DNA of 63,165 nucleotides, the filler included. It is 4 parts of 4 records of this genome, joined end to end, with 100 filler letters (N's around TTAATTAATTAA, not from the genome) between each part and the next. Parts side by side here need not be neighbours in the genome. Positions count along the whole stretch, not along the records: positions 1 to 27,593 come from DRR723986_5611; 3 more parts are not named here. One strand, given 5' to 3'. The translations under genes and the position numbers were made by a program. Under the pieces are notes generated by a model. That model was given only the letters and a program-made list of their open reading frames with translations. It was not told the origin of the DNA and did not search any database. Shown piece after piece: positions 9,732-24,120 of this stretch. Each line of letters starts with the position of its first letter. Position 1 is the stretch's first letter.

Positions 9732-12056
9732 TTACTCACCTTTCCGCACCACCGGGGGCACAAAAGCCCCCACCGGCATCACCGGCCCGCTATACACTTC
9801 GATATCAACAAGGCAAGACATCGCACTGGGCCCCTGAGCCAAACGTGAGGTTCCCTCATCCCGAGTGAGGACATTGGGATTGCCATGCAAACAGGAGAGA
9901 TCTGCCATTCCCTCAGTGGGTGGGTCATACCAGGCGCCGGTACTCAATTGCAGAACACCCGGGCGAACCTCATCGCTGATCACTGCGGTGCAGAGGCAGG
10001 CACCGCGAGGACTAAACAGACGGACCAGACTTCCGTCGTTTATCCCTCTTTCCGCCGCATCCTGCGGGTGAATCACCACCGGCTCACGGCCGTTGATCTT
10101 CGATGCCCGGCTATAGGAGCCGTGGTCCAGTTGCGAATGCAGTTTGTTCTTTGGTTGGTTTGAAATCAGGTGCAGCCGGTATTTGCCGGCAGTCTGACCG
10201 GCCCACTCGGCCGGCTCCCTCCAGAATGGAAATCCCGGACACTCCTCGTAACCAAAAGCGGCGACCTGCTCTGAGTAGAGTTCGATTTTTCCGCTCGGCG
10301 TCTTCAGCGGATAACGAACCGGATCGTCCCGAAACCGTTTCAGCAAAACTTGGGGTTCCTCCGGTAACGAATTCTCAAACCATCCGCGCGCCACAAACTC
10401 CGGAAACGCTGGCAGATCGATATTGCTGGCTTTGGCTTTCTCGCGGGTCTCATCATAAAGCGCCTGCAGCCAGTCCGACTCATCCCGGTTTTCGGTAAAG
10501 GCACCCTGAACCCCCAAGGCACCGGCCAGTCGCCCGAAAATTTCGTAATCCGTCAGACTCTCGCCAACCGGTTCCCTGGCCTTTTCCATGAAAATCAGAA
10601 AAGGGTCCCGGCTGGACGAGGCAATATCGTTGCGCTCAAGAGATGTGGCCGCGGGCAGAACAATGTCCGCATGCTTGGCCTGAGCATTCCAGCACCATTC
10701 ATGAACGATCACCGTGTCGGGTTTCTGCCAGGCCTGACGCAACCGGTCCAAATCCTGATGATGGTGGAACGGGTTGCCGCCGGCCCAATACACCAGCCGA
10801 ATCTCCGGATACGTTCCCTTCAGGCCGTTGTACTCAAACGTCTCTCCGGGTTTCAGCAGCATGTCTGCAATCCGGGCGACCGGTATAAAGCTTTTTACCG
10901 GGTTGCGCCCCTGGGGCAGCGACGCTCCGGGAATGCCCTGGTAATTGGCGCCGATGGCATTCATGGCACTGTATCCGAAACCGATCCCTCCGCCGGGTGT
11001 GCCCAACTGACCGAGCATCGCCGCCACCGCGATGGCTGCCCAGTAGGGCTGTTCCCCATTATCCTGCCGGGTGAGTGACCAACTCACTGAAATCATGGTC
11101 CGCTTGCGGGCCATCTCACGCGCAAGCTCCCGTATGTCGTCTGCCGACAGGCCGGTGCGCACTGCAGCCCAGTCTGCGGACTTGGGCTGACCATCTGTCG
11201 CACCCAGAAGATACGGGAGGAACCGGTCAAAACCGGTTGTATACCGGGCCAGAAACGCGTGATCCGCCAAGCCTTCCTCGTTCAAGGTATGGGCAATACC
11301 CAGTAACAACGCGACATCACTGCCCGGATAAATCGGACACCACTGAGCCCCAGCCTCTTCAAGAACGTCCGAGCGTATCGGCCCGACATTCACAAACTTC
11401 AGGCCATTCGCCGCGGCCGCCAGCATTCCTTGCTTCTGAACATGGCGCCCGACGCCGCCATTGGTCACCTGCCCATTTCGGACCGGCACCCCTCCAAAGG
11501 CCATAAACAGCTCACAGTGTTCCTTAAGAACGTCCCAACTGGTGGCACCATTGACCATGGAGTAAAAGTCGCCGAGAACATACGGCAACGTGACTTCCGC
11601 CGCCGCATAACTGTAGGTGTTGACCGAGTATGTGAACCCGCCAATGGTATTGAGGAAACGCTTTAACTGACTTTGTGCATGGTGGAACCGCCCGGCACTG
11701 GACCAACCGTAGGAGCCTCCGTAGATGGCCTCATTGCCATACTGACTCCGAACCCGGTCAAGCTCACCGCTCACAAGTTCAATCGCCCGGGGCCAGGACA
11801 CCTCGACAAATTCATCCTGCCCACGCGATCCTTCGGCGCCACCCGGGCCACGTTCAAGCCACCCCTTGCGGACCATCGGCCGGGTAATTCGCAACGGACC
11901 TTCCAGAACATCCACGATACCCTGACCAATCGGGGAGGGATCAGGATCCAACTCAAATCCTTCCAGCGCAGTAACGGCTCCGTTGTGGGTGTGAACCCGG
12001 TAGGTGCCCCAATGGCTGCTGGTGAGTGTACCTTTGACTGGACGTGCAGAGTTCAT
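9732..12056 (-). CDS. Mo-bisPGD S/N-oxide reductase, BisC/TorZ/DorA-like, cytoplasmic
   Basis: SSHWG, GGSYGW, TYS (Ser ligand region), GGNPFHHHQD, LHSQLD; no twin-Arg signal and no Fe-S motif; CAGGAG RBS. Confidence 0.9.
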   Translation of the reverse strand: MNSARPVKGTLTSSHWGTYRVHTHNGAVTALEGFELDPDPSPIGQGIVDVLEGPLRITRPMVRKGWLERGPGGAEGSRGQDEFVEVSWPRAIELVSGELDRVRSQYGNEAIYGGSYGWSSAGRFHHAQSQLKRFLNTIGGFTYSVNTYSYAAAEVTLPYVLGDFYSMVNGATSWDVLKEHCELFMAFGGVPVRNGQVTNGGVGRHVQKQGMLAAAANGLKFVNVGPIRSDVLEEAGAQWCPIYPGSDVALLLGIAHTLNEEGLADHAFLARYTTGFDRFLPYLLGATDGQPKSADWAAVRTGLSADDIRELAREMARKRTMISVSWSLTRQDNGEQPYWAAIAVAAMLGQLGTPGGGIGFGYSAMNAIGANYQGIPGASLPQGRNPVKSFIPVARIADMLLKPGETFEYNGLKGTYPEIRLVYWAGGNPFHHHQDLDRLRQAWQKPDTVIVHEWCWNAQAKHADIVLPAATSLERNDIASSSRDPFLIFMEKAREPVGESLTDYEIFGRLAGALGVQGAFTENRDESDWLQALYDETREKAKASNIDLPAFPEFVARGWFENSLPEEPQVLLKRFRDDPVRYPLKTPSGKIELYSEQVAAFGYEECPGFPFWREPAEWAGQTAGKYRLHLISNQPKNKLHSQLDHGSYSRASKINGREPVVIHPQDAAERGINDGSLVRLFSPRGACLCTAVISDEVRPGVLQLSTGAWYDPPTEGMADLSCLHGNPNVLTRDEGTSRLAQGPSAMSCLVDIEVYSGPVMPVGAFVPPVVRKGE

Positions 12057-12127
12057 GCTCATGCTCCTGTTTTTGTTGTACAGGCATGAAAGCACAAACG
12101 TTGACCAATGACAAATACCTGGATATG

Positions 12128-12766
12128 CTAACCGAAATCGAGGGTTTTTACCTGGCCCAGACCAATCGCGACCTGAACCAGCTCGGCGAACGAGTCCACC
12201 TGCATTTTGGCCATCATATTGGCCCGATGGCCCTCAACCGTCTTGCGATTAATGCCAAGTTCGTCCGCGGCTTCCTGGTTGGAGAAACCCTTGACGATCA
12301 ATTCCAGAACCTGGCGCTCTCGGCGGGTGAGACTGTCGTAACGCTCCCGGATCCGTGCCTGTGAATTCCGGCGGGCAAACCTTGCACGGTCTTTTTCGAG
12401 AGCATTGTGAACGTGATCGATCAGAACCTGATCGTCGAAAGGTTTCTCTATGAAGGTGAGAGCGCCTTGGGTCAGCGCCCTGACGGCCATGTCAACATTC
12501 CCATGGGCGGAAATCATGATCACAGGCAGCTCAATATTGTGTTCCGGCAGTTTTTTCTGGGCATTGATACCGCTCAGGCCGGGCATACGCACGTCCATGA
12601 CGATACAACCACTTTGCTGCTCATCGAACGCGTCAAAAAACGTCAGCGCATCCTCGAAAGTTCGGACCTTAAGCCCGACGGACTCCAGCAACCACTGCAG
12701 AGAATCACGGACATCAGCATCGTCGTCGATCACGAAAACCGTTTGAGCTTCGTTATTGGAGGTCAT
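12128..12766 (-). CDS. FixJ/TodT-like response regulator (REC + LuxR HTH)
   Basis: IDDD, MDVRMPG, LTRRERQVL..TVEGHRANMMAK. Confidence 0.93.
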   Translation of the reverse strand: MTSNNEAQTVFVIDDDADVRDSLQWLLESVGLKVRTFEDALTFFDAFDEQQSGCIVMDVRMPGLSGINAQKKLPEHNIELPVIMISAHGNVDMAVRALTQGALTFIEKPFDDQVLIDHVHNALEKDRARFARRNSQARIRERYDSLTRRERQVLELIVKGFSNQEAADELGINRKTVEGHRANMMAKMQVDSFAELVQVAIGLGQVKTLDFG

Positions 12767-12773
12767 GAGTTGT

Positions 12774-14297
12774 TCAATCGGCAGTATTCAATGTGAATGA
12801 AAAGCACGCGCCACCCTCTGAGAGGTTTGTCGCCCACAGCTCGCCCCCCAGATTCTCTACCAATGAGCGACTGATGGCCAGCCCCATACCCAGTCCGGAC
12901 TGTTTGGTGGAGAAAAAACGGTCGAACAGTCGGGACATATCGTCATCTGATATACCAGGCCCTTCATCTGACACACTGACCCGAATCTGATCAGCATCCT
13001 GCACGGCGACACGTACCCGAACCGTTCTTGGTTCGGTTTCCGCTTCTGGGCTTTCACTTGCCTCAATCGCGTTCACGATAAGGTTCAACAGTACCTGCTC
13101 CAGCTGAATTCTGTCACCAAGAACCGGCGGCAATCGATCGGGGATATCGGTTACCACGCGGACATGACTACGGTCCGCCATGGACTCACAGAACTCAATC
13201 ATATCGTTGATTAGCTCGGGTAGAGCCAGCGATGTAATGACAGGCTCCTGTTTGCGGGTAAAATCCATCATCCGATGAATGATCTCTCCTGCCCTCAAGG
13301 CGGTTCGTATACTTCGAGTGATAGGTAGCTCAACATCACCCCAGGCAATACTGTCATTGCCTGCGAAACGACGCTCGATACCCCGCAGGTAGTTCACCAT
13401 CGCAGATAGCGGCTGGTTGAGTTCATGGGCAAGGCTGGAGGCAAGCTCGCCCATGGTCACAAGACGGCTGGCATGGTCAATGTCTGCGCGGTACTGCTTC
13501 AACTGTTCCTCGGCCGCTTTTTTATCGGTTAGGTCATGCGCAACGATTGAGAAGTATTCGATGTCACCATGTAATGATCGGTGCGCAAGCAGTTCAAGAA
13601 GCACGGGAATCCGGCCCCCCCTCAGACTGCGCATCATCACTTCACCCCGCCAATGCCCCGTGCTCCGTGCTACCGGAAACCCTTCACCTTCTATCAGGCG
13701 CTGACCCTTATCTGTCAAAAACCGAGTCACCTCAAACGACGTATAGTCGATCTGTTCCAACCCCAACGCCCTTCGAGCCGCCTCATTCAGGTGGGACACG
13801 GTCTGGTCCAGGTTCACGAACACCACAAGATCCTGAGTACTCTCGAGCACCCTCGCTAACCTTCGGTTCGCCTTGTCAGCCTTGATTCTGTGTGTGGCAT
13901 CCCGGGAAACAACCAGAATCTCCCGGATGTCGTTGGTGTCGGGATCCCTGATCGTCCGGCTGGTGCTTTCCAGCCATATGTAGTGCCCGTCCTTGCAACG
14001 GAATCGGTAGGTATGGGTATATAGACCCCGGTCATAAGTGACCGTTGGTGCGCGAAGCCGGAAGTCCTCGACATCATCAGGATGGTAAAGGTCGTAAGCT
14101 GACATACCGACAATTTCTTCAACGCTATAACCCAGCAAATGGGTAACGGCGGGTGAAGCATAGATGAACCGCCAGTCATCCGGGGTGTGGCGGGAAATCA
14201 TGTCGGTCGATTGCTCCGCCATCTCCGCCAGCAACCGGTTCCTTTCTGCATCATCAGTCAGTGCAGAGAAACCCTCTTCCGGGGTGCGGGTTTTCAT
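12774..14297 (-). CDS. Cytoplasmic PAS-PAS sensor histidine kinase (FixL-like)
   Basis: Two PAS domains; AHELNQPL H-box; N, G1 and G2 boxes; no TM segments. Confidence 0.93.
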   Translation of the reverse strand: MKTRTPEEGFSALTDDAERNRLLAEMAEQSTDMISRHTPDDWRFIYASPAVTHLLGYSVEEIVGMSAYDLYHPDDVEDFRLRAPTVTYDRGLYTHTYRFRCKDGHYIWLESTSRTIRDPDTNDIREILVVSRDATHRIKADKANRRLARVLESTQDLVVFVNLDQTVSHLNEAARRALGLEQIDYTSFEVTRFLTDKGQRLIEGEGFPVARSTGHWRGEVMMRSLRGGRIPVLLELLAHRSLHGDIEYFSIVAHDLTDKKAAEEQLKQYRADIDHASRLVTMGELASSLAHELNQPLSAMVNYLRGIERRFAGNDSIAWGDVELPITRSIRTALRAGEIIHRMMDFTRKQEPVITSLALPELINDMIEFCESMADRSHVRVVTDIPDRLPPVLGDRIQLEQVLLNLIVNAIEASESPEAETEPRTVRVRVAVQDADQIRVSVSDEGPGISDDDMSRLFDRFFSTKQSGLGMGLAISRSLVENLGGELWATNLSEGGACFSFTLNTAD

Positions 14298-14393
14298 GTG
14301 CGGGAACTCTCCGGGATCTGGTAGTTTTTTTCAGCCTTCGTGCACTGTGGGTATCCGGGGCCATGACCGCGCAAGTCACAGCCCCCTAGCATA

Positions 14394-14939
14394 CTACCTC
14401 AGGAATTCCTTGCTGAAAGTTCTGAACTCGGCGGCATCGGAACCACGAAGCCATTCAAAACCCACCATTTCCCGAGTAACCAACTGAGCACCCGCACGCT
14501 CGACGCGCCGCAGAGCAATCTCGGTGTCCAGAGGGTTACGGGCAGAGATAGCATCTGCCACAACAAAAACCTCTAACCCTTTATCAAGCATGCTCAACAC
14601 AGACTGTACAACACAGGCATGGGACTCCATTCCACATAGAACAACCTGCTGCCGGTCGTGGGCATTAAATGCCGCTTCAAAACCTGAATCATCGATGCAG
14701 GAGAACAGTGTTTTACCATGCAGATTGGCTTCGCCAACCAGGTCGCGCAGTGCCTCTTCGGTGTGTCCCAAACCATCCGGGTATTGCTCTGAGCCAATAA
14801 CCGGCACATCCATCAGATGCGCCAGCCGAACCAGCCATCTACAGTTGTCCACCAGTTGGTCGTGTTCGTGAACACCTGGCAATAAACGGGCCTGAACATC
14901 AACGACGGTAACGATCGATTTGTTTTTGCTCAACAACAT
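14394..14939 (-). CDS. Isochorismatase-family cysteine hydrolase
   Basis: VDVQ, SEQYPDGLG, KTLFS, GMESHACV (Asp-Lys-Cys triad). Confidence 0.9.
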   Translation of the reverse strand: MLLSKNKSIVTVVDVQARLLPGVHEHDQLVDNCRWLVRLAHLMDVPVIGSEQYPDGLGHTEEALRDLVGEANLHGKTLFSCIDDSGFEAAFNAHDRQQVVLCGMESHACVVQSVLSMLDKGLEVFVVADAISARNPLDTEIALRRVERAGAQLVTREMVGFEWLRGSDAAEFRTFSKEFLR

Positions 14940-14952
14940 AGTTCACTCCTGT

Positions 14953-15384
14953 TTATGCCGGACGACGGTCGACCATATTCGTTGCAACGCCTTCGGCCAC
15001 CACGGTATCGCCAACCTTGCAGACTGTTTCAAGCTTGACCCGACGCCGCTCCTCATTGATTTCGATGACTTTTGCAGAAGCGATAACGGTATCGCCAATG
15101 TGTACTGGCGCCTTGAAGCGGATTTGTTGATCGATATAGATCGCGCCCGGTCCAGGCAACCTGGTACCAAGTACCGCGGAGATCAGTGCGGCACTGAACA
15201 TGCCATGAACGATGCGTTCCTTGAATGGCGTGGTCTTGGCGTACTCGTCATTAATGTGGACCGGGTTATCGTCACCACTGATACCGGCAAAAAGCACAAC
15301 ATCAGCATCAGTGATGGTCTTGGCGTAGCACGCTTCCATGCCGATTTCGAGATCTTCCAGATAGTAACCATGTAACTCTTGCAT
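14953..15384 (-). CDS. phaJ: MaoC/PhaJ-type (R)-specific enoyl-CoA hydratase
   Basis: FAGISGDDNPVH and IVHGM hydratase-2 motifs; AGGAG RBS. Confidence 0.85.
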   Translation of the reverse strand: MQELHGYYLEDLEIGMEACYAKTITDADVVLFAGISGDDNPVHINDEYAKTTPFKERIVHGMFSAALISAVLGTRLPGPGAIYIDQQIRFKAPVHIGDTVIASAKVIEINEERRRVKLETVCKVGDTVVAEGVATNMVDRRPA

Positions 15385-15434
15385 TGTAACTCTCCTAAGA
15401 TTAATCCATGAGCCTGTTACACTAATGGTTTGCA

Positions 15435-15470
15435 ATCGATAAACCAAGTATTTTTACTTGGTTTTTTCGA
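15435..15470. promoter_or_regulatory. Palindromic operator in the divergent phaJ/mcd promoter
   Basis: Perfect IR AAACCAAGTA-TTTT-TACTTGGTTT at 15441-15464; both halves extend toward TCGA. Confidence 0.65.
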
Positions 15471-15535
15471 ATCCCTCTGATAGCCTTCTGCTCAACAACA
15501 AAGACAACACCGCTTTGCAGAAGAGGAAACGCGGT

Positions 15536-16903
15536 ATGCAAACTCAACCTGTGAATATCTTTGAAAGAGCCTTCAAAAAGCTGGTGCCGGGAGGGCTGGA
15601 CTCAGGCATTCGCCGCGAATCTGACGTGATGAGTATTTCCGAGGAGCTCAATGATTCGGACATCACAACGGTGAAGGAATGGATCAATAACTGCCTTTCC
15701 GAAAATGGTGGTCAGGTAGAAGCAAGAAATCGGGCCGCGCTGCTCGGTCGGGCCTATCTCAAACTATCTCGGACGGGTAAGGTTCGATTTCTCGGTCTCC
15801 TCGCGGAAGAATATGGTGTCAACGAAGGCGTGGTAGAGACCTCTATTGCGGAATGGCACAGCGCGCCAGCCTCAAAGAAAACGGAAAAAGCGCAAACACT
15901 GCGCAAGGCGCTTGAGCCAAGCCGAACAACGCTTCTGAAGCAATTTAACGGAGTACCATCCGGCGTAAAGTTCCTGGTCGATATGCGAGAGGAACTACTC
16001 GCGTTCTGCAAGGACTACCCATCGCTTAAACCCCTCGAGACCGACCTTCGAGACTTGCTGGCAACCTGGTTTGATGTAGGTCTTCTTCAGTTGGAAGAAA
16101 TCAGCTGGAACTCAAGTGCGGCAATCCTTGAAAAGCTGATCGCTTACGAAGCCGTCCATGCGATCAAAAGCTGGAGCGATTTGAAAAATCGACTTGACTC
16201 AGACCGGCGCTGTTTCGCCTTCATTCATCCCAATATGCCGGAAGAGCCATTGATCTTTGTAGAGGTCGCTCTGGTAAACGGGCTTGCAGGGAATGTGCAG
16301 AAACTGCTTGATGAAGATGCTCCAACGCAGGAGATCGAAACAGCCGATACTGCGATTTTCTACTCCATCTCCAATGCGCAAAAGGGTCTGGCAGGCATCA
16401 GTTTTGGTAATTTCCTGATCAAGCAAGTGGTCAAAAAGCTCAGTGACGAATTCCCTCAGCTTAAACAGTTCGCAACCCTCTCTCCTATCCCCGGGTTTGC
16501 AAAGTGGCTTGAGAGCTGCGCTCCGGCAACTTTATGCAACCTTCCGGGAGGTGAAGATTGGCTGAGCCTGCCGCCACCGAGGGTGCCTTCAATTATAGAA
16601 GCCAACGATTCTCTCCAGACGAAGCAAGATGCACTTATCAAGCTGGCAGCTTCATATCTGTGCCTCTGCCAAAAGAGCTCCAAGCGTGCGATGGATCCGG
16701 TTGCCCACTTCCACTTGAGTAACGGTGCCCAGGTTGCGCGGATCAACTGGATGGCAGATACGTCGAGAAAGGGATTGGAACAGTCGGGCGGGCTGATGGT
16801 GAATTACGTTTATGAACTCCCGCGAATTGAATCCCGAAGCCAACAGTACATTTCTGAAGGCGTGATATCGAAGTCGTCCTCTGTAAAGAAACTACTCAAG
16901 TAA
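15536..16903 (+). CDS. Malonyl-CoA decarboxylase
   Basis: YEAVH, DRRCFAF.HP.MP.EPLIFVEVAL, FYSISN, GISFGNFLIK, TLSPIPGF, DPVAHFHLSNGA. Confidence 0.93.
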   Translation: MQTQPVNIFERAFKKLVPGGLDSGIRRESDVMSISEELNDSDITTVKEWINNCLSENGGQVEARNRAALLGRAYLKLSRTGKVRFLGLLAEEYGVNEGVVETSIAEWHSAPASKKTEKAQTLRKALEPSRTTLLKQFNGVPSGVKFLVDMREELLAFCKDYPSLKPLETDLRDLLATWFDVGLLQLEEISWNSSAAILEKLIAYEAVHAIKSWSDLKNRLDSDRRCFAFIHPNMPEEPLIFVEVALVNGLAGNVQKLLDEDAPTQEIETADTAIFYSISNAQKGLAGISFGNFLIKQVVKKLSDEFPQLKQFATLSPIPGFAKWLESCAPATLCNLPGGEDWLSLPPPRVPSIIEANDSLQTKQDALIKLAASYLCLCQKSSKRAMDPVAHFHLSNGAQVARINWMADTSRKGLEQSGGLMVNYVYELPRIESRSQQYISEGVISKSSSVKKLLK

Positions 16904-16930
16904 CCCCCAAAAAAGTGAAAGGAGAGTCCC

Positions 16931-17680: not shown

Positions 17681-17691
17681 GGGAGCGGACA

Positions 17692-19470
17692 ATGACAGAG
17701 TACAGAGCACCGACGCGGGAAATGGTTTTCACACTCCAGCACGTAGCTGGATTCTCCGAAATGGTCAAAGCCTGCGGCTATGAAGAAGCTTCCGAGGATG
17801 TCGTTAGGGCGATTCTGGAAGAAGCTGCAAGATTCTCAACTTCAGTGATTGCACCGACGAATGCCGTCGGTGATCGACAAGGCGTGAAGCTTGACCAGAA
17901 CGGCGTTGTCAAAACCCCCGAGGGTTTTCGTGAAGCCTATCAGCAGTATGCCGATAGTGGTTGGGCCAGTTTGCAATTCAACCCTGAATTTGAGGGTCAA
18001 GGCCTGCCGTTTTCTCTGGCGATACCGGTACAGGAAATGTGGCATGCTGCCAACATGGCCTGGGGGCTCTGTCCTCTGTTGTCTCAAGGCGCCGTCGAAG
18101 CACTTTCAGAAAATGCGAGCGACGAACTCAAACGAAAACTACTGCCTAAAATGGTCTCCGGCCATTGGACCGGAACCATGAACCTTACCGAGCCTCAGTC
18201 TGGCTCTGACCTCTCCGGTATTAGAACCCAAGCTGTTCGAGACGGCGATATCTATCGGATTAAAGGCCAGAAGATATTCATCACCTGGGGTGAACACGAT
18301 CTGGCAGAGAATATTGTACATCTGGTGCTGGCCCGCCTACCGGATGCACCCGCCGGGGTAAAAGGCATCTCACTGTTTGCCGTGCCCAAATTTATCCCGG
18401 ACGATCATGGCAACATCGGCACCAGAAATGACTGTCGTGCGGTATCCCTCGAGCACAAGTTGGGCATCCATGCCAGCCCCACGTGTGTGATGAGCTATGG
18501 AGACAATGACGGCGCCGTTGGCTACCTGGTAGGGGAAGAAAACCGAGGCCTGGCGTGTATGTTCACGATGATGAACAATGCCCGCCTTACCGTAGGCCTT
18601 CAGGGCGTTTCGATATCAGAACGGGCTTACCAGCAGGCCCTCGCTTACACCCGTGAACGAACTCAGGGAACAGCCCCGGGTGATACCGGACTCTCAGCAA
18701 TCATCAGGCACCCAGACGTGCGTCGGATGCTGATGACCATGAAAGCGCTGACCGAAGCCGCGCGAGCTCTCGCATATAAAGGGTGCGTCGCCGTCGATTT
18801 TGCCAAAGGCAAACACCTGCCTGATGATCTCAGGGCCCGTCAGCAACGCCGGGCGGACCTGCTGACACCGTTGGTTAAAGGCTGGTGCACGGAGATCGCA
18901 CAAGAAGTGACTTCGTTAGCGATCCAGTGCCACGGCGGAATGGGTTTTGTGGAAGAGACGGGTATAGCCCAGCATTACCGTGATGCTCGTATTTTGCCCA
19001 TCTATGAGGGAACCAATGGTATTCAGGCACTAGACCTCATTGGCAGAAAGACCATTCGTGACAACGGGATGGCGGTTCGGGAACTGTTGGCGGATATGCA
19101 GGCATCTGCTGATACAGCTCGCGAACAGTCTCTGCTCACTCAGGAACGACAGTCCAGATTTGATCAAGCGGTAGCGTTTGTAGAGGATGCGACCAAGATA
19201 GTACTTGAGCACCGGGCAGACGAGGCCTTTACCGGCTCCGTCGCGTTCAACTATCTGATGCTGAGTTCAACCGTTACAGCTGCCTGGCTCATGCTGGAGT
19301 CCGCATCAAAGGCGAACGGTACCAAATCGAACGATGACAAGTTCGCTGCCCAAAAACTGACTACCACAAATTTCTTTTTCGATCATATTCTGCCCCGTTG
19401 CTCCGGATACCTAACGGCATTGCGCTCGGGAGACGAGGCGGTCATGGCATTGTCAGAAACAGACTTATAA
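17692..19470 (+). CDS. Acyl-CoA dehydrogenase, FadE5/DmdC-type
   Basis: WTGTMNLTEPQSGSDL, KIFITWGEHD, EHKLGIHASPT, IYEGTNGIQA. Confidence 0.92.
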   Translation: MTEYRAPTREMVFTLQHVAGFSEMVKACGYEEASEDVVRAILEEAARFSTSVIAPTNAVGDRQGVKLDQNGVVKTPEGFREAYQQYADSGWASLQFNPEFEGQGLPFSLAIPVQEMWHAANMAWGLCPLLSQGAVEALSENASDELKRKLLPKMVSGHWTGTMNLTEPQSGSDLSGIRTQAVRDGDIYRIKGQKIFITWGEHDLAENIVHLVLARLPDAPAGVKGISLFAVPKFIPDDHGNIGTRNDCRAVSLEHKLGIHASPTCVMSYGDNDGAVGYLVGEENRGLACMFTMMNNARLTVGLQGVSISERAYQQALAYTRERTQGTAPGDTGLSAIIRHPDVRRMLMTMKALTEAARALAYKGCVAVDFAKGKHLPDDLRARQQRRADLLTPLVKGWCTEIAQEVTSLAIQCHGGMGFVEETGIAQHYRDARILPIYEGTNGIQALDLIGRKTIRDNGMAVRELLADMQASADTAREQSLLTQERQSRFDQAVAFVEDATKIVLEHRADEAFTGSVAFNYLMLSSTVTAAWLMLESASKANGTKSNDDKFAAQKLTTTNFFFDHILPRCSGYLTALRSGDEAVMALSETDL

Positions 19471-19494
19471 TTCAGCGTTCTTAGGTGACCAACC

Positions 19495-20916
19495 ATGTTC
19501 ATAAATGGCGAGTGGGTGACCAACCGACAACAGTTTCCCGTTACAAATCCTGCAACAGGTGAAACAATCGGAGAGGTCCCCGACTGCACAGATGAAGACA
19601 TTGAATCGGCCATAACGGCCGCTGATACAGCGTTTGGAGATTGGAAGAAGACCACAACTTACCAGCGATCTCAGCTGTTATACCGAGCCTGGGAGTTAAT
19701 GATACGCCGCAAGCGAGAACTCGCGGTGCTGATGACCCGAGAGCAAGGCAAACCGCTTAAGGCCTCTCTCAACGAGGTCCAGTATGGTGCCGATTTCCTT
19801 TTATGGTTCGCAGAGGAAGCAAAGCGAACTTACGGACAAACGATACCATCATCCAGAGAGAACCAGAGGTTTATTGTCCACAAGTCACCTGTTGGCGTTG
19901 TGGGCGCCATCACGCCGTGGAATTATCCAATTTCGATGATAACTCGGAAGCTAGCCCCCGCTCTGGCGGCGGGCTGCACGGTAATTCTGAAGCCTGCTGA
20001 AAGCACGCCTCTATGCGCTAAAGCCATGATGGAGATTTTTGCTGAGGCAGGTTTTCCTGCAGGCGTGATTAATTGTATTACTGTTCAGAATCCCGCTCGG
20101 GTTGGCACAGCATTCTGCACCGATCCACGCATCCGAAAGCTAACGTTTACAGGCTCAACACCGATTGGCAAAGAACTTAACGGACTGGCTGCAGCCAACA
20201 TGAAAAGGGTTTCGATGGAACTAGGTGGTCATGCGCCTGCCATTGTCTTTCCCGATGCAGACCCAGTGCACGCAGCCAAAGGTCTCTCCTTGGTCAAGTA
20301 CTTGAATACAGGCCAGGCTTGCATAAGCCCCAACCGCATCTTTGTTCACGAAGACCATCTGGAACCATTCATCTCAGAACTTACCAGCCGCACAAAGCGG
20401 CTAAAGGCCGGCAATGGCATGAATGAAGGCGTCGGGATTGGACCATTAATAAACGAACTGGCACTCCAGAAGGTGGATCGGCAGGTCAAAGATGCTGTTG
20501 CCCGGGGCGCGAAGATCGAAACTGGCGGCCAACGTCTGACTGAAGGAGAGTTGGGTGCCGGGTTCTTTTACGCACCAACCGTTCTCTCCGGCGTAACCGA
20601 GGCTATGGCGATATACCAGGAGGAGACTTTCGGGCCGGTCGCGCCAATAATCGCGTACAAATCCGAAGATGACGTCATTGCTATGGCGAATGATACCGAT
20701 TATGGGCTGGCCGCCTATATCTACAGCAACAATATCAGCACTGCCATTAGAGCATTCGAGGCTCTGGATTTCGGAATCATTGGCATTAACGACATAAACC
20801 CGACCAGCGCTGCCGCCCCCTTTGGCGGAATGAAAAACAGCGGTCTGGGAAGAGAGGGTGCTCAGGAGGGCATTGAAGAGTATTTGGAAACCAAACTTGG
20901 CGGTCTCGTCATCTAA
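19495..20916 (+). CDS. NAD(P)-dependent aldehyde dehydrogenase, GabD/SSADH-like
   Basis: ITPWNYP, FTGST, MELGG, GQAC, EETFGP. Confidence 0.92.
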   Translation: MFINGEWVTNRQQFPVTNPATGETIGEVPDCTDEDIESAITAADTAFGDWKKTTTYQRSQLLYRAWELMIRRKRELAVLMTREQGKPLKASLNEVQYGADFLLWFAEEAKRTYGQTIPSSRENQRFIVHKSPVGVVGAITPWNYPISMITRKLAPALAAGCTVILKPAESTPLCAKAMMEIFAEAGFPAGVINCITVQNPARVGTAFCTDPRIRKLTFTGSTPIGKELNGLAAANMKRVSMELGGHAPAIVFPDADPVHAAKGLSLVKYLNTGQACISPNRIFVHEDHLEPFISELTSRTKRLKAGNGMNEGVGIGPLINELALQKVDRQVKDAVARGAKIETGGQRLTEGELGAGFFYAPTVLSGVTEAMAIYQEETFGPVAPIIAYKSEDDVIAMANDTDYGLAAYIYSNNISTAIRAFEALDFGIIGINDINPTSAAAPFGGMKNSGLGREGAQEGIEEYLETKLGGLVI

Positions 20917-20932
20917 AGACCATCCTCCTTTT

Positions 20933-20957
20933 GCCCGGCTACATGCCGGGCTTTTTT
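20933..20957 (+). terminator. Rho-independent terminator of the mcd-phaB-acd-ald operon
   Basis: GCCCGGC-TACAT-GCCGGGC-TTTTTT. Confidence 0.85.
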
Positions 20958-20995
20958 AACCTTCCTGAACCGTCTGAACTCGAAAGCTCACTTAC

Positions 20996-21019
20996 AAAAA
21001 ACCCCGGCATGCGCCGGGG
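20996..21019 (-). terminator. Rho-independent terminator of the permease/ligase operon
   Basis: AAAAAA-CCCCGGC-ATGC-GCCGGGG on the plus strand. Confidence 0.8.
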
Positions 21020-21051
21020 AAATACCTACACCAGGTTCACACCATCTTCTA

Positions 21052-22677
21052 CTATGTCATCAGTTGGCTTCTCAGCAGGTGCTTCTGAAGTTTTCCCGTT
21101 GACGTTTTCGGCAATTCCTCCGCAAAAACAACCTTCTTCGGGACTTTAAAACCAGCAAGGTTCGCACGGCAATGGGCAACGATATCTTCTGCTGTCAGCC
21201 CCTCGTTATTCGGCTTGAGCGTAATAAAAGCGCAAGGGATTTCGCCCCAGTGATCATCGGGCGCTGCCACCACCGCGGCTTCCATCACAGCGGGGTGATC
21301 ATACAAAGTGCTTTCAACCTCAAGGGTAGAAATGTTCTCGCCGCCAGATATGATGATATCTTTGGATCTGTCCTTAATCTCAACGTAGCCGTCTGGGTGC
21401 CAAACGCCCAGGTCACCAGTATGAAACCATCCACCCTTGAGAGACTTATTCGTTTCCTCGGGGTTGTTTAAATATCCCTTCATCACTGCATTGCCACGAA
21501 CGAAGAGTTCCCCGATGGAGATACCATCCTGAGCAACCGGCTCCATCGTATTGGGATCGGCGACCATCATGTCGGCCATTGACAGAGAAAGAATTCCTTG
21601 CCGAGCCATTTTGACAGCCTTCTGTTTCAAACCCAGCGTATGCCAGTCGTCCTGGAACTCACAAATGAGGCTTGGTCCGTAGGTTTCCGTCAGGCCATAG
21701 AGATGAACCACTTTGATTCCCATGGATTCCATCGATTCAATAGTCGCTGCAGGGGGGGCTGCGCCGCCCGTTGCAGCCGTAATGGACTGATTGAAAGGCC
21801 GCTTCTGATCTTCCGGCGCGTTGATGAGCATGTTCAAAACGACGGGAGCGGCACAGAAATGGGTAACACCGTGCTTCTCAAAAGCTTCAAACACCGGCTT
21901 CGGGTGTGGTGACCTGAGGCACACGTGGGTGCCAGCCGCTGCCGTGACCGCCCAGGGATAACACCAGCCATTGCAATGAAACATTGGCAGTGTCCAGAGA
22001 TACACGGCACCTGCCGGCAATCCGAACCCGATGACGTTGCTCAATGCATTCAAGTGAGCTCCGCGATGATGATAAACAACACCTTTGGGATTTCCGGTCG
22101 TTCCTGATGTGTAGTTCAGTGCAATGGCTTGCCATTCATCGCTCGGCATTTCCCACTCGAAATTGTCCTCGCCGGTCGAGAGCAATTCATCGTAGGTCAT
22201 ACGACCAATCAACTCGCCTCCCTCAAAGCATGGATCATCAACGTCCACGACAATGGGCTTTGCGTCACACCCCGAGAGCGCTTCGCGGGACCGATCGCTG
22301 TACTCTTTGTCGGTAAAGAACACCTTGGCACGACCATGATTCAGCATGAATGTCATGGTCTTGGAGTCGAGGCGTGTGTTCTGGGCGTTCAGAACGGCAC
22401 CGATCATTGGCACGGCAAAATGCAACTCCAACATCTCCGGAATATTGGGAAGCAAAGCGGCAACCGTATCGCCTTTTCGAACACCCAGCTTGCGAAGCGC
22501 TGAAGCCATTTTCAGACAGCGCTGATAGGTTTCTGCCCACGATCGGCGAATATCGCCGTGGATGACGGCGGTTCGGGAGGGGTGAGCCAACGCTGTTCTT
22601 TGGATGAACGTGATCGGTGTCAGAGGTGTGTAATTAGCCTCCAACCTATCCAGCCCGAGCTCAAACATATTTTCCAT
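21052..22677 (-). CDS. Short/medium-chain acyl-CoA synthetase (AMP-forming)
   Basis: ANYTPLTP, YTSGTTGNPKG, LPMFHCNGW, YGLTE, LPKTSTGK. Confidence 0.92.
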   Translation of the reverse strand: MENMFELGLDRLEANYTPLTPITFIQRTALAHPSRTAVIHGDIRRSWAETYQRCLKMASALRKLGVRKGDTVAALLPNIPEMLELHFAVPMIGAVLNAQNTRLDSKTMTFMLNHGRAKVFFTDKEYSDRSREALSGCDAKPIVVDVDDPCFEGGELIGRMTYDELLSTGEDNFEWEMPSDEWQAIALNYTSGTTGNPKGVVYHHRGAHLNALSNVIGFGLPAGAVYLWTLPMFHCNGWCYPWAVTAAAGTHVCLRSPHPKPVFEAFEKHGVTHFCAAPVVLNMLINAPEDQKRPFNQSITAATGGAAPPAATIESMESMGIKVVHLYGLTETYGPSLICEFQDDWHTLGLKQKAVKMARQGILSLSMADMMVADPNTMEPVAQDGISIGELFVRGNAVMKGYLNNPEETNKSLKGGWFHTGDLGVWHPDGYVEIKDRSKDIIISGGENISTLEVESTLYDHPAVMEAAVVAAPDDHWGEIPCAFITLKPNNEGLTAEDIVAHCRANLAGFKVPKKVVFAEELPKTSTGKLQKHLLRSQLMT

Positions 22678-22719
22678 TTCATCTAGCCTCTTGTTTTTGT
22701 ACAACAACCTTCTTTTACA

Positions 22720-24120
22720 TCAACTCCGATCAGCGACCGCATCCTCTCCAACGCCATCATCGTGGTGATGCGTAGCCTCATATGCATCAGCAAACCAGTT
22801 TTTCTCGAGGAAGAACCAAAGCACCAGCCCGACCCCAAGCCCCCAGGCGGCACCTTTCACCGCCAGCACCGAGCCCACGATCACGGCCACGCCCCGCTCG
22901 AGATTGGTTTGGCGATCCAGCATTTCGATCGCCAGATAGCCACACAGATAGCCCTGAATCAGCAGAGTCAGCGCCATACCGATGTTCAGTCCAGGCTTGA
23001 AGAGCGTCACCACGGGCACCAGCACAATCGCAATGGTCATGCCCCAGTACAGGCTGGTTGCCCCACCCCAGTAACTGTCCATAACGGAGCGGGGATTGTT
23101 CATATACCGGTTAATCACCAAAGCCTGACCACCGGTCCAGCCCGGCCCGGACAGGCTTATAAAAGGTGCAAACAAGGCGTGCAGCATATTGCGAATACCC
23201 ACAATGATGCTGTTTCGGCGTGGGCTGAACACAAGTTTTTCATCCTTGCGTACACCGTCGGCATTCTTGAAGAGCGAATCCATTACCAGAATGTCGCCAA
23301 ACGCGATGATGTAAGCTGCCAATGCCAGGGGAATTGCATCGATAAAGTATTCAAGAGGAGGAAATCCCAGACCGAATAGACTGTAATCCCGGAAGATCGT
23401 GGAAAAGGGAATAGTGGTGAACCCCCACTCGATGACCGGCGCATTAACCTCGCCAATGATGATGCCGAATACGTAGGCAATCAGAAACGGCACGGCGATA
23501 CCGTACTGCGCAACAAACCGGAAAAAACCGTAGCGCGCACGCAGAGGCCCGGCTGTTTCGGAAAACAGCATGAAAAAGCCAAGAACGGCACCAGTCAGAA
23601 TCGTGATAGGCATGCTCCATACGCGACCGTCCGCCGCAAATTCGCCCATCACGGCGGACACTCCGGCCCCAATCAGGATGCCGGACTTGAGCGACATGGG
23701 CATCTTGCGCACCAATGCATCGGCACCTTTAAACACCCCCAGCCCAAGAAAAATCACCGCGACCGTTAGCTGCAGCGCAATGAGTGCGAGCAAACGCTCG
23801 TCCCCCTCTGGATAGCCAGTCAGAAAGGCGATGTAAAGGGGAATGCCGGCGGTAATCCACCCTGCTACCGCCGGGTCGCCAAAATGTGAATGCACCAGAT
23901 AAAGAATATTGTTTAACAAAACAAAAGCGACAGCGATTTCAAAGGGTATACCGAGAACCGACGTCATCAAGGCGGTGATACTGAGTGGAACCACGCACAG
24001 GATAGCCCCCTGCAGCACATCCGGAATTTCCACTTTGTAGTGCACAAAGGGAACACGCAATTTCAGTGCACCCAACATCGATGGTTGCTCACCACCGGTC
24101 GGTCTTTTGTGTAAGGACAT
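22720..24120 (-). CDS. Multi-pass membrane transporter (distant NCS2/SLC23-like permease)
   Basis: About 12 hydrophobic segments; co-oriented directly upstream of the acyl-CoA synthetase; GGAG RBS. Confidence 0.75.
   Translation of the reverse strand: MSLHKRPTGGEQPSMLGALKLRVPFVHYKVEIPDVLQGAILCVVPLSITALMTSVLGIPFEIAVAFVLLNNILYLVHSHFGDPAVAGWITAGIPLYIAFLTGYPEGDERLLALIALQLTVAVIFLGLGVFKGADALVRKMPMSLKSGILIGAGVSAVMGEFAADGRVWSMPITILTGAVLGFFMLFSETAGPLRARYGFFRFVAQYGIAVPFLIAYVFGIIIGEVNAPVIEWGFTTIPFSTIFRDYSLFGLGFPPLEYFIDAIPLALAAYIIAFGDILVMDSLFKNADGVRKDEKLVFSPRRNSIIVGIRNMLHALFAPFISLSGPGWTGGQALVINRYMNNPRSVMDSYWGGATSLYWGMTIAIVLVPVVTLFKPGLNIGMALTLLIQGYLCGYLAIEMLDRQTNLERGVAVIVGSVLAVKGAAWGLGVGLVLWFFLEKNWFADAYEATHHHDDGVGEDAVADRS

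What the first reader, a model, noticed from the sequence alone, without database searches (positions are those of the whole stretch)
9732..24120. Candidate undescribed thiolase-free, CoA-bound C3 (propionate/acrylate/3-substituted propionate) oxidation pathway
Seen: permease, acyl-CoA ligase, FadE5/DmdC-type acyl-CoA dehydrogenase, MaoC hydratase, PhaB-like dehydrogenase, aldehyde dehydrogenase and malonyl-CoA decarboxylase, with a soluble PAS kinase/regulator pair, a cysteine hydrolase and a Mo oxide reductase. There is no thiolase, PHA synthase or malonate ligase/transporter in the cluster. Known: beta-oxidation of a C3 acyl-CoA gives an aldehyde (3-oxopropionyl-CoA); PhaJ and PhaB are a stereochemically matched (R) pair; methylthioacryloyl-CoA hydration in DMSP demethylation also yields 3-oxopropionyl-CoA. 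Inference: acid > acyl-CoA > enoyl-CoA > 3-hydroxy-CoA > 3-oxopropionyl-CoA > malonyl-CoA (ALDH) > acetyl-CoA + CO2. This accounts for all six core enzymes and would be an alternative to methylcitrate, DddABC or DmdD routes that routine labels (phaB, phaJ, gabD) would hide.
Basis: partly seen in the sequence, partly recalled or inferred. Interest (0 to 1): 0.75.

Follow-up and report, generated by a model that had tools for sequence, protein, structure and literature searches.

The report
Conserved thiolase-less acyl-CoA oxidation cluster
A nine-gene cluster shared by three genera of marine bacteria looks built to burn a small organic acid down to acetyl-CoA by way of malonyl-CoA, possibly giving genes to an old, gene-less pathway, but which acid it burns is not settled.

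Summary

**Conservation.** A core of nine genes is syntenic in 35 of 59 loci fetched with the decarboxylase, from Marinobacter, Marinobacterium and Motiliproteus. The core is response regulator, PAS kinase, cysteine hydrolase, MaoC hydratase, malonyl-CoA decarboxylase, PhaB-like reductase, DmdC/FadE1-like dehydrogenase, aldehyde dehydrogenase and acyl-CoA ligase. The permease (25/35) and the cytoplasmic BisC-like Mo reductase (15/35) are accessory.

**Supporting detail.**
- The divergent promoter region carries an invariant CCAAG-N8-CTTGG palindrome.
- The aldehyde dehydrogenase has Leu where all five solved succinate-semialdehyde dehydrogenases have a substrate-binding Arg, in 35 of 35 orthologues.
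- The ligase is not MatB-like.

**Interpretation.** The C3 route (acyl-CoA, enoyl-CoA, 3-hydroxy-CoA, 3-oxopropionyl-CoA, malonyl-CoA, acetyl-CoA) is the most economical reading, but it is unproven (about 0.35).

**Counter-evidence.**
- The hydratase and reductase look C4-C6-typed.
- All five genomes tested carry prpB.
- Seven thiolases lie elsewhere in the genome, and one abuts the cluster in 5 Marinobacterium loci.
- Odd-chain dicarboxylate oxidation is a serious rival.

**Novelty.** The chemistry is already in KEGG/MetaCyc-derived models. The new part would be the gene assignment.

The parts
9732..12062 (-). Cytoplasmic BisC-family molybdopterin S/N-oxide reductase. Accessory, not core.
   Evidence: Pfam PF00384/PF01568/PF18364. 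TIGR00509 scores 933 bits, below the cut-off of 1017. No twin-arginine leader; the likely start is the Met at 12062 or 12056. Present in 15 of 35 cluster loci, Marinobacter only.
12128..12766 (-). Response regulator, receiver plus LuxR/GerE helix-turn-helix (FixJ/NarL type).
   Evidence: PF00072 and PF00196. The FixJ model scores 223 bits, below the cut-off of 255. Present in 35/35 loci.
12774..14297 (-). Soluble histidine kinase with two PAS domains.
   Evidence: PAS, HisKA and HATPase_c. Only the kinase core resembles FixL; the PAS domains do not match heme-PAS structures. Present in 35/35 loci.
14394..14939 (-). Isochorismatase-family cysteine hydrolase of the ISOC/MAR1/YcaC-like group. Substrate unknown.
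   Evidence: PF00857 scores 94.8 bits. The best solved relatives are 2b34, 8rl0, 8rkz, 4wgf and 1yac. The Asp, Lys and Cys (SHACV) positions align. Present in 35/35 loci.
14953..15384 (-). (R)-specific enoyl-CoA hydratase, MaoC/PhaJ type, 143 aa.
   Evidence: PF01575. PDB 5cpg scores 111 bits and 1iq6 scores 91 bits. The D-x4-H dyad motif is kept, as are the residues aligned to the Ser and Leu of the 1iq6 pocket. The start was reset from the sequence.
15444..15461 (.). Palindrome CCAAG-N8-CTTGG in the divergent control region. Candidate operator of the LuxR-type regulator (inferred).
   Evidence: Invariant in 9 of 9 aligned intergenic regions from three genera. The stricter form AAGTA-N4-TACTT occurs at this place in 25 of 25 Marinobacter loci and 0 of 10 others.
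15476..15486 (.). Second conserved intergenic block, TCTGnTAGCCT. Function not assigned.
   Evidence: All positions except the one written n are invariant in the 9-sequence alignment.
15537..16903 (+). Malonyl-CoA decarboxylase, 454 aa from the ATG at 15537.
   Evidence: PF05292 scores 335 bits and PF17408 scores 85 bits. PDB 4ks9, 4ksa and 4ksf score 294-303 bits, and the FHLxNGA motif is kept. It is the only MCD in the M. nauticus genome that holds L001.
16931..17680 (+). PhaB-like (R)-3-hydroxyacyl-CoA dehydrogenase / acetoacetyl-CoA reductase subfamily SDR.
   Evidence: TIGR01829 scores 352 bits, above the cut-off of 302. The PhaB equivalog NF042966 scores 191 bits, below 436.
17692..19470 (+). 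Long-form acyl-CoA dehydrogenase of the DmdC / FadE1-FadE2 / FadE5 type.
   Evidence: ACAD domains plus PF12806. PDB 8pns and 8png score 472 bits, 6ijc scores 443 bits and 6ks9 scores 279 bits.
19495..20916 (+). Hydrolytic aldehyde dehydrogenase. SSADH-like but with an altered substrate pocket.
   Evidence: PF00171 scores 559 bits. TIGR01780 scores 581 bits, below the cut-off of 646. The residue six before the catalytic Cys is Leu, against Arg in 5/5 solved SSADHs. It is Leu in 35/35 orthologues. The ELGG Glu and the Cys are kept.
20933..20951 (+). Terminator-like hairpin plus T-run after the ALDH gene.
   Evidence: 7 G-C pairs followed by TTTTTT. It lies 17 nt after the stop codon.
21002..21019 (-). 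Terminator-like hairpin plus T-run after the ligase gene.
   Evidence: 7 G-C pairs followed by TTTTTT on the minus strand.
21052..22677 (-). AMP-forming acyl-CoA ligase, PRK08162 subfamily, 541 aa.
   Evidence: PRK08162 scores 851 bits, above 677. The DmdB model scores 304 bits, below 822. The malonyl-CoA synthase model scores 217 bits, below 558. The database form is 541 aa. Present in 33/35 loci.
22720..24120 (-). Multi-pass permease upstream of the ligase gene. BenE/DUF3360-like by language-model features only.
   Evidence: No Pfam or NCBIfam hit. Atlas neighbours are 'benzoate transporter' and DUF3360 clusters at 0.98-0.99. Present in 25/35 loci.

Best explanation
This is a two-component-regulated catabolic regulon made of three transcription units: maoC-hydrolase-kinase-regulator(-Mo reductase), mcd-phaB-acad-aldh, and permease-ligase. 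It oxidises a small carboxylic acid entirely as CoA esters and ends in malonyl-CoA decarboxylation.

Most likely mechanism (all steps inferred, none assayed):
1. A C3-type acid is taken up by the permease. Candidates are propionate, acrylate, 3-hydroxypropionate or a 3-substituted propionate.
2. The ligase thioesterifies it.
3. The DmdC/FadE-type dehydrogenase desaturates it to the enoyl-CoA.
4. The MaoC hydratase hydrates it.
5. The PhaB-like SDR oxidises the product to 3-oxopropionyl-CoA. For a 3-substituted substrate, the substituent would leave spontaneously instead.
6. The altered SSADH-like ALDH oxidises the CoA-bound aldehyde to malonyl-CoA.
7. The decarboxylase gives acetyl-CoA and CO2.

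The cysteine hydrolase is core, but I cannot assign its step. It may be an upstream amidase or a clean-up enzyme.
For: **Shown**
- Nine-gene synteny in 35 loci of three genera.
- An invariant palindrome and a second conserved block in the divergent control region, 9/9 sequences from three genera, and the stricter palindrome in 25/25 Marinobacter loci.
- In an RNA-seq library, one assembled contig covers 15519-21007, which is exactly mcd-phaB-acad-aldh. Separate contigs cover hydrolase plus maoC and kinase plus regulator, and the control region is uncovered. This is a weak hint only, because contigs cannot prove a transcript.
- Terminator-like hairpins lie after aldh and after the ligase gene.
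- The decarboxylase is a full, motif-intact MCD and the only one in the genome.
- The ligase is not MatB-like: 217 bits against a cut-off of 558. By contrast, 13 of 32 other gammaproteobacterial MCD loci have a neighbouring ligase only 25-31% identical to this one, which I take to be MatB-type. That family was not scanned.
- The ALDH fails the SSADH cut-off and has Leu for the substrate Arg in 35/35 orthologues.
- No thiolase lies within the fetched flanks of 30 of 35 loci.

**Established chemistry**
- Hydration of methylthioacryloyl-CoA gives malonate semialdehyde-CoA (PMC3660561 and PMC7934745, passages read).

**Recalled, from no call**
- ALDHs that oxidise CoA-ester semialdehydes exist (the PaaZ ALDH domain, BoxD).

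**Inference**
- With these assignments every enzyme except the hydrolase is used once, and no missing enzyme is needed.
Against: - No assay, growth or induction data exist. I found no paper on this cluster. The four-term and five-term searches and 'malonyl-CoA decarboxylase' plus Marinobacter returned nothing relevant.
- The hydratase keeps the residues aligned to the pocket Ser and Leu of the C4-C6 PhaJ 1iq6. The identification of these as the chain-length determinants is recalled.
- The SDR passes the acetoacetyl-CoA reductase subfamily cut-off. Both this and the hydratase result point to C4-C6 intermediates rather than C3.
- 3-Hydroxypropionyl-CoA is achiral, so the (R)/(R) match says nothing for C3.
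- The dehydrogenase is as close to fatty-acyl FadE1/FadE2-type structures (472 bits) as to DmdC (443 bits).
- The cluster ligase is not the best DmdB-like ligase in its genome, and no DmdB equivalog is present in the 3 genomes tested.
- prpB is above its cut-off in 5 of 5 cluster-bearing genomes tested, so a propionate route already exists.
- The genome holds 7 strong thiolases. A thiolase is convergent with the ligase gene, adjacent or within 3 kb, in 5 of 9 Marinobacterium loci.
- One substrate Arg (MITRK) is retained in the ALDH, which also fits a free omega-carboxy aldehyde.
- The core hydrolase has no role in the scheme.
Confidence: 0.35

Rival explanations
1. Odd-chain dicarboxylate (or omega-oxo acid) beta-oxidation of the peroxisomal type.
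1. The ALDH makes the dicarboxylate from its semialdehyde.
2. The ligase activates it.
3. The dehydrogenase, (R)-hydratase and (R)-dehydrogenase run the cycles.
4. A thiolase encoded elsewhere (or next door in Marinobacterium) cleaves 3-oxoglutaryl-CoA to acetyl-CoA plus malonyl-CoA.
5. The decarboxylase removes the malonyl-CoA.
For: - The enzyme set matches the peroxisomal logic: an MFE-2-type (R)-hydratase plus SDR, an ACOX-like feature in the dehydrogenase (PF22924, 34.8 bits), and MCD.
- Peroxisomes are proposed to shorten C5-dicarboxylyl-CoA to malonyl-CoA, which MCD then converts (bioRxiv 10.1101/2025.02.13.637994, passages read).
- The ALDH is SSADH-like and keeps one carboxylate-binding Arg.
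- The PhaJ and PhaB typing fits C5-C6-sized intermediates.
- There are 7 thiolases in the genome, and a thiolase neighbours the cluster in 5 loci.
Against: - No thiolase lies within the flanks of 30 of 35 loci. Where one is present it is a lone convergent gene next to unrelated genes.
- The dehydrogenase is not of the glutaryl-, pimeloyl- or dicarboxylyl-CoA types. PimC and PimD score 39 and 33 bits, and the non-decarboxylating glutaryl-CoA dehydrogenase scores 93 bits against a cut-off of 470.
- The permease is BenE/DUF3360-like rather than a dicarboxylate carrier (a lead only).
- In four beta-proteobacteria, odd-chain dicarboxylates run through decarboxylating glutaryl-CoA dehydrogenase, with no role for MCD reported (PMC12543098, passages read).
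- No omega-hydroxylase or alcohol dehydrogenase in the cluster would supply the aldehyde.
Confidence: 0.25
2. A C3 route that passes through free acids. 3-Oxopropionyl-CoA is hydrolysed, spontaneously or by the cysteine hydrolase, to malonate semialdehyde. The ALDH oxidises that to malonate. The same ligase re-activates malonate, and the decarboxylase finishes.
For: - It gives the core hydrolase a job.
- It lets the ALDH act on a small omega-carboxy aldehyde, as its family does.
- DmdD shows that the 3-aldehyde favours thioester hydrolysis (PMC3660561, passage read).
Against: - The ligase scores far below the malonyl-CoA synthase model, 217 bits against 558.
- The route spends a second ATP.
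- Isochorismatase-family enzymes are known as amide or vinyl-ether hydrolases, not thioesterases (family knowledge, recalled).
- Malonate semialdehyde decarboxylates readily (PMC3660561, passage read).
Confidence: 0.1
3. A general short-chain (C4-C6) (R)-specific beta-oxidation or PHA-monomer salvage module that uses household thiolases. The ALDH and decarboxylase serve side functions: aldehyde detoxification and removal of stray malonyl-CoA.
For: - PhaJ-like and PhaB-subfamily assignments.
- The PRK08162 ligase family is widespread. 45 of 401 sampled Gammaproteobacteria have a homologue, and M. nauticus has a 57%-identical paralogue.
- A related ACAD-MaoC pair sits in a different fatty-acyl operon in L126.
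Against: - It does not explain why the only MCD of the genome and a pocket-altered ALDH are locked in one operon with the SDR and dehydrogenase in 35/35 loci.
- It also does not explain why alphaproteobacterial MCDs sit alone among housekeeping genes.
Confidence: 0.15

Closest known systems
DMSP demethylation pathway, steps DmdB-DmdC-DmdD (Ruegeria and relatives)
   Same: A CoA ligase, a long-form DmdC-type acyl-CoA dehydrogenase and an enoyl-CoA hydratase. The chemistry passes through malonate semialdehyde-CoA (PMC3660561 and PMC7934745, passages read). The dehydrogenase scores 443 bits to the solved DmdC 6ijc.
   Different: - The hydratase is MaoC-type, not crotonase-type.
- The ligase is below the DmdB cut-off, 304 bits against 822. 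No DmdB equivalog was found in the 3 genomes tested.
- An SDR, an ALDH and an MCD are present. The aldehyde would therefore be oxidised and kept on CoA rather than hydrolysed to acetaldehyde plus CO2.
CoA-bound propionate oxidation via 3-oxopropionyl-CoA and malonyl-CoA. These are orphan reactions in KEGG/MetaCyc-derived models. I recall the original biochemistry as Vagelos and co-workers, Clostridium kluyveri, 1959, but did not see that paper.
   Same: The same order of intermediates. The reaction 3-oxopropionyl-CoA to malonyl-CoA is listed in models (PMC5234801, passage read) and was raised as a theoretical route (PMC6572756, passage read).
   Different: I found no genes assigned to it in my searches. 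Here a specific conserved cluster would supply all the steps. In Cupriavidus necator, mcd played no part in 3-hydroxypropionate breakdown (PMC6572756, passage read).
Peroxisomal beta-oxidation of odd-chain dicarboxylic acids with MFE-2 and malonyl-CoA decarboxylase
   Same: (R)-specific MaoC-type hydratase plus SDR dehydrogenase, an oxidase/dehydrogenase, and MCD removing the final malonyl-CoA (bioRxiv 10.1101/2025.02.13.637994, passages read).
   Different: That route needs a thiolase, which the cluster lacks in 30/35 loci. It is eukaryotic and organellar. Here the enzymes are separate bacterial genes under a two-component system.
MatABC malonate utilisation (MCD plus malonyl-CoA synthetase plus carrier)
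   Same: The MCD belongs to the same family.
   Different: The ligase is not MatB-like. The MCD-with-distant-ligase arrangement (25-31% identity, taken as MatB-type but not scanned) is seen in 13 of 32 other gammaproteobacterial MCD loci, none of which has this cluster.
Succinate-semialdehyde dehydrogenase GabD
   Same: The closest solved relatives score 450-489 bits. The catalytic Cys and Glu and the first substrate Arg are kept.
   Different: It is below the TIGR01780 cut-off. The second substrate Arg is Leu in 35/35 orthologues. The motif is CIS rather than the CVC seen in four of the five solved SSADHs aligned (the fifth reads CVCIN). The genomic context is CoA-ester enzymes, not gabT.

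Membership tests
Malonyl-CoA decarboxylase (PF05292/PF17408) | Both MCD domains present, above the curated cut-offs | tested here: met
   335 bits (cut-off 23.2) and 85 bits (cut-off 22.4).
Malonyl-CoA decarboxylase (PF05292/PF17408) | Conserved catalytic-site motifs, as in solved bacterial MCDs | tested here: met
   FYSISN and FHLxNGA align identically with 4ks9 and 4ksa. Which residues are catalytic is recalled, not from a call.
Malonyl-CoA decarboxylase (PF05292/PF17408) | Decarboxylates malonyl-CoA rather than an alkylmalonyl-CoA | not testable with these tools
   Needs an enzyme assay.
Succinate-semialdehyde dehydrogenase (TIGR01780 / GabD) | Score above the curated subfamily cut-off | tested here: not met
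   581 bits, below 646. The GabD equivalog NF008415 scores 503 bits, below 828.
Succinate-semialdehyde dehydrogenase (TIGR01780 / GabD) | Two Arg residues that hold the substrate carboxylate | tested here: not met
   The first (MITRK) is kept. The second, six residues before the catalytic Cys, is Arg in 5/5 solved SSADHs and Leu in 35/35 cluster ALDHs. The role of these residues is recalled from the human SSADH structure paper.
PhaJ-type (R)-specific enoyl-CoA hydratase | MaoC hot-dog domain with the Asp/His dyad | tested here: met
   PF01575 scores 85.7 bits. SGDDNPVH aligns with the dyad motif of 5cpg and 1iq6.
PhaB acetoacetyl-CoA reductase | Curated model cut-offs | tested here: inconclusive
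   The subfamily model TIGR01829 scores 352 bits, above 302 (met). The equivalog NF042966 scores 191 bits, below 436 (not met).
DmdC (3-methylmercaptopropionyl-CoA dehydrogenase) | Closer to DmdC than to fatty-acyl dehydrogenases of the same long form | tested here: not met
   6ijc scores 443 bits, against 472 bits for 8pns and 8png. That 6ijc is DmdC and that 8pns/8png are the Pseudomonas FadE1/FadE2 type is recalled.
DmdB (3-methylmercaptopropionyl-CoA ligase, NF005426) | Equivalog cut-off of 822 bits | tested here: not met
   The cluster ligase scores 304 bits. No hit above the cut-off in 3 cluster-bearing genomes.
MatB malonyl-CoA synthetase (PRK07514) | Subfamily cut-off of 558 bits | tested here: not met
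   217 bits.
FixL/FixJ oxygen-sensing pair | Equivalog scores and a heme-binding PAS domain | tested here: not met
   FixL scores 216 bits, below 850. FixJ scores 223 bits, below 255. The only solved chains with a FixL part that match are engineered chimeras, and they match through the kinase core alone. No heme-PAS chain is among the 60 listed matches.
BisC-family cytoplasmic S/N-oxide reductase (TIGR00509) | Subfamily score and absence of a Tat leader | tested here: inconclusive
   933 bits, just below 1017. No twin-arginine leader in the N-terminus.

The most novel reading that the evidence does not exclude
The cluster is the missing gene set for CoA-bound C3 oxidation. Its key novelty would be an SSADH-derived aldehyde dehydrogenase (Arg to Leu in the pocket) that oxidises 3-oxopropionyl-CoA to malonyl-CoA, an orphan activity with no assigned gene. 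It is coupled to an MCD recruited from a housekeeping lineage.

In the 15 Marinobacter genomes that add the cytoplasmic BisC-like reductase to the regulator operon, the route may also take sulfoxide forms of 3-substituted propionates, for example oxidised methylthiopropionate or products of DMSP oxidation. This would release the sulfur group without DmdD.
Probability: 0.3. Interest if true: 0.8.

Novelty: new variant of a known kind. Interest (0 to 1): 0.55.

Why it matters
If the C3 reading holds, a pathway drawn on metabolic maps for decades would get its genes. A new ALDH specificity (an aldehyde held on CoA) would be defined. A third bacterial way of disposing of propionate, acrylate, 3-hydroxypropionate or DMSP-derived C3 units would be added, beside the methylcitrate, AcuI/methylmalonyl and DddA/DddC routes. 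This bears on marine carbon and sulfur budgets and on engineering malonyl-CoA supply.

If the dicarboxylate reading holds, it would be a bacterial counterpart of peroxisomal odd-chain dicarboxylate oxidation that avoids glutaryl-CoA dehydrogenase.

Either way, routine labels (phaB, phaJ, gabD, fadD) hide a conserved, separately regulated unit. It is easy to test in culturable, genetically tractable Marinobacter.

Tried and rejected
- **FixL-like oxygen control.** Rejected. Only the kinase core matches FixL; the PAS domains do not.
- **Mo reductase as a core member.** Rejected (15/35).
- **The PAS chemoreceptor at 24544-26127 as a member.** Rejected. It was seen only in L001.
- **MCD context in more distant lineages.** The two alphaproteobacterial loci examined show housekeeping neighbours: trigger factor, ClpX, RF3 and YjeF. 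None of the 24 loci with a decarboxylase at most 53% identical has the cluster. In the sampled Gammaproteobacteria (MCD in 40 of 400), 32 loci were fetched and none carries the cluster. 13 have a neighbouring ligase only 25-31% identical to this one, taken as MatB-type but not scanned. L126 looked like a distant variant, but it is a phaB-phaR pair, a lone MCD and a TetR-nitroreductase-ACAD-MaoC-thioesterase-crotonase operon.
- **Ligase-based search for variants.** The family is widespread at 44-59% identity (45 of 401 genomes), with no closer orthologue in the sample. Source names are only generic.
- **Hydrolase function from the literature.** Nothing useful. YcaC-type enzymes remain unassigned (listing only).
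- **Earlier scan notes.** Nothing on this place or cluster. The one sequence hit concerned an unrelated PKS locus.
- **RNA runs.** Only contigs were available, so no expression levels, starts or conditions. Depth figures are not used to rank genes. The small-share runs X4-X6 are not used for habitat.
- **Searches of the window's own assembly.** Not possible because it is not held. The M. nauticus genome that holds L001 was used instead.
- **Papers.** Searches for a description of this cluster or of a gene for the 3-oxopropionyl-CoA step found none. Supplementary tables were closed and could hold transcriptome or fitness rows for these genes.

Full report
**What is there.** The window matches Marinobacter nauticus DSM 50418 (locus L001, 100% identity over the decarboxylase). 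On the minus strand, running leftwards from a short control region, lie five genes:
- a MaoC hydratase;
- an isochorismatase-family cysteine hydrolase;
- a soluble two-PAS histidine kinase;
- a FixJ/NarL-type regulator;
- a BisC-family molybdenum S/N-oxide reductase without a Tat leader.

On the plus strand, running rightwards, lie four genes:
- a malonyl-CoA decarboxylase;
- a PhaB-like SDR (TIGR01829, 352 bits, above the cut-off of 302);
- a 592-aa DmdC/FadE1-type acyl-CoA dehydrogenase;
- an aldehyde dehydrogenase.

Convergent on these is a permease-ligase pair. Reading the DNA moves the MaoC start to the ATG at 15384 and the decarboxylase start to the ATG at 15537. Both have ribosome-binding sites, and the move leaves a 152-bp divergent control region. 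Strong terminator-like hairpins follow the ALDH gene and the ligase gene.

**Is it a unit?** A scan of one genome per species with the decarboxylase returned 59 loci. tblastn with the window's proteins shows regulator, kinase, hydrolase, MaoC, decarboxylase, SDR, dehydrogenase and ALDH in the same order in 35 of them: 25 Marinobacter, 9 Marinobacterium and 1 Motiliproteus.
- The ligase is within the flank in 33 of 35. It moves between two positions, which shows it travels with the cluster rather than with the neighbourhood.
- The permease is present in 25 of 35.
- The Mo reductase is present in 15 of 35, all Marinobacter.
- The remaining 24 loci, with a decarboxylase at most 53% identical, do not have the cluster. 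The two alphaproteobacterial ones examined (L039, L048) sit among housekeeping genes.
- In an even sample of 400 Gammaproteobacteria the decarboxylase occurs in 40. Of 32 such loci fetched, none has the cluster. 13 instead have a neighbouring ligase only 25-31% identical to this one, which I take to be MatB-type although that family was not scanned.

The control region carries a palindrome, CCAAG-N8-CTTGG, and a second block, TCTGnTAGCCT. Both are invariant in nine aligned regions from all three genera. A stricter form of the palindrome is at this place in 25 of 25 Marinobacter loci. This suits a dimeric LuxR-type regulator, though binding is inferred.

In one RNA-seq library a single assembled contig spans 15519-21007, exactly the four plus-strand genes. 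Separate contigs cover hydrolase plus MaoC and kinase plus regulator, and the control region is uncovered. Contigs cannot prove transcripts, so I count this as a weak hint of the operon structure.

**What the individual proteins say.**
- *Decarboxylase.* It is complete, aligns with solved bacterial enzymes at about 300 bits with its conserved motifs intact, and is the only one in the genome.
- *Ligase.* It belongs to the PRK08162 subfamily (851 bits) and is far below the models for malonyl-CoA synthase and for the DMSP-pathway ligase DmdB.
- *Hydratase.* It is closest to short-chain PhaJ enzymes and keeps the dyad motif and the residues aligned to the pocket Ser and Leu of 1iq6.
- *Dehydrogenase.* It is about equally close to fatty-acyl enzymes of its long form (8pns and 8png, 472 bits) and to 6ijc (443 bits).
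- *ALDH.* This is the most informative protein. It is SSADH-like but below the subfamily cut-off. The residue six positions before the catalytic cysteine is arginine in all five solved succinate-semialdehyde dehydrogenases aligned and leucine in all 35 cluster orthologues. The other substrate arginine, the catalytic Cys and the general-base Glu are kept. It is therefore a hydrolytic ALDH with a remodelled, less cationic substrate pocket.
- *Hydrolase.* It has the Asp-Lys-Cys positions and belongs to the functionally unassigned ISOC/MAR1/YcaC-like group.
- *Kinase.* It resembles FixL only in its kinase core, so oxygen sensing is not indicated.

**Most likely mechanism.** Malonyl-CoA (or a close analogue) must be an intermediate, since a dedicated, sole-copy decarboxylase is locked into the operon. 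Within the cluster it cannot come from a MatB-type ligase. A thiolase is absent from the flanks of 30 of 35 loci. The remaining in-cluster source is oxidation of the aldehyde 3-oxopropionyl-CoA by the remodelled ALDH.

That aldehyde is what ordinary beta-oxidation steps give from a C3 acyl-CoA. It is also what hydration of a 3-substituted acryloyl-CoA gives after loss of the substituent, as established for methylthioacryloyl-CoA (PMC3660561 and PMC7934745, passages read). The oxidation to malonyl-CoA is already carried as a reaction in KEGG/MetaCyc-based models (PMC5234801, passage read) and was considered a theoretical route in Cupriavidus (PMC6572756, passage read). I recall, but did not see, the 1959 Clostridium kluyveri work that proposed it.

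It uses each enzyme once and needs none that is missing. My confidence is about 0.35.

**What speaks against it.**
- The (R)/(R) pairing is irrelevant for C3, because 3-hydroxypropionyl-CoA is achiral.
- The hydratase and SDR look like C4-C6 enzymes.
- All five cluster-bearing genomes tested have methylisocitrate lyase above its cut-off. M. nauticus also has a canonical methylmalonate-semialdehyde dehydrogenase elsewhere. The cluster is therefore not filling a gap for propionate.
- The cluster ligase is not the best DmdB-like ligase of its genome, and no DmdB equivalog exists in three genomes tested.
- The genome has seven strong thiolases. In five of nine Marinobacterium loci a lone thiolase gene lies convergent to the ligase gene, adjacent or within 3 kb.
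- The hydrolase, although core, has no place in the scheme.

**The main rival.** The main rival is an odd-chain dicarboxylate route modelled on peroxisomes. There, an (R)-hydratase/SDR system shortens C5-dicarboxylyl-CoA to malonyl-CoA, which MCD removes (bioRxiv 10.1101/2025.02.13.637994, passages read). The ALDH would make the dicarboxylate from its semialdehyde. Several points count against this rival:
- it needs a thiolase from outside the cluster;
- the dehydrogenase is not of a dicarboxylyl-CoA type;
- beta-proteobacteria handle such acids through glutaryl-CoA dehydrogenase (PMC12543098, passages read).

**Comparison and novelty.**
- The cluster works like the DmdB-DmdC-DmdD branch up to the CoA-bound aldehyde, but it fails the membership tests for DmdB and is not specifically DmdC-like.
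- It shares only the decarboxylase with MatABC.
- Its ALDH fails two defining tests for GabD.

No paper describing this cluster or a gene for the 3-oxopropionyl-CoA step turned up. Supplements were closed. I class it as a new variant of a known kind: known chemistry, a new and conserved gene arrangement, and possibly a new ALDH specificity. The function remains unproven, and a short set of enzyme assays and a reporter screen would settle it.

Noticed in passing
window 8261-9462: An IS3-family transposase (rve and HTH_21 domains) sits directly beside the Mo reductase gene. Contigs from other runs have loose ends at about 9440-9479. This suggests the insertion is strain-specific.
   Followed up: partly
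window about 51000-63165: G+C jumps from about 0.48-0.58 to 0.63-0.69. ORFs in this stretch include a creatinase/M24 peptidase-like protein, an OmpR-type regulator and an ABM-domain protein. It may be an acquired island or an assembly join. I did not examine it further.
   Followed up: no
window 24544-26127: A PAS-containing methyl-accepting chemotaxis protein lies next to the permease gene. Among the 59 loci it was found only in L001, so it is not part of the conserved unit.
   Followed up: partly
L016 17348-18598; L033, L031, L020, L021: A lone thiolase gene, about 50% identical to the best M. nauticus thiolase, lies convergent to the ligase gene in five Marinobacterium loci. It is adjacent in L016 and L033 and about 3 kb away in L020, L021 and L031. 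In L016 unrelated genes follow it.
   Followed up: partly
L126 (G321:C35) 12229-17109: A TetR-nitroreductase-ACAD(52% identity)-MaoC(46%)-4HBT thioesterase-crotonase operon lies 3 kb from a lone MCD and near a phaB-phaR pair in an unnamed gammaproteobacterium. This shows the ACAD-MaoC pair also occurs in another kind of acyl-CoA operon.
   Followed up: partly
window 30120-44554: A long plus-strand gene run includes a dehydroquinase/shikimate-dehydrogenase-like fusion and a TPP enzyme. Further on, at 44975-50820, there are two more PAS kinases and an HD-domain response regulator. It is unrelated to the finding.
   Followed up: no
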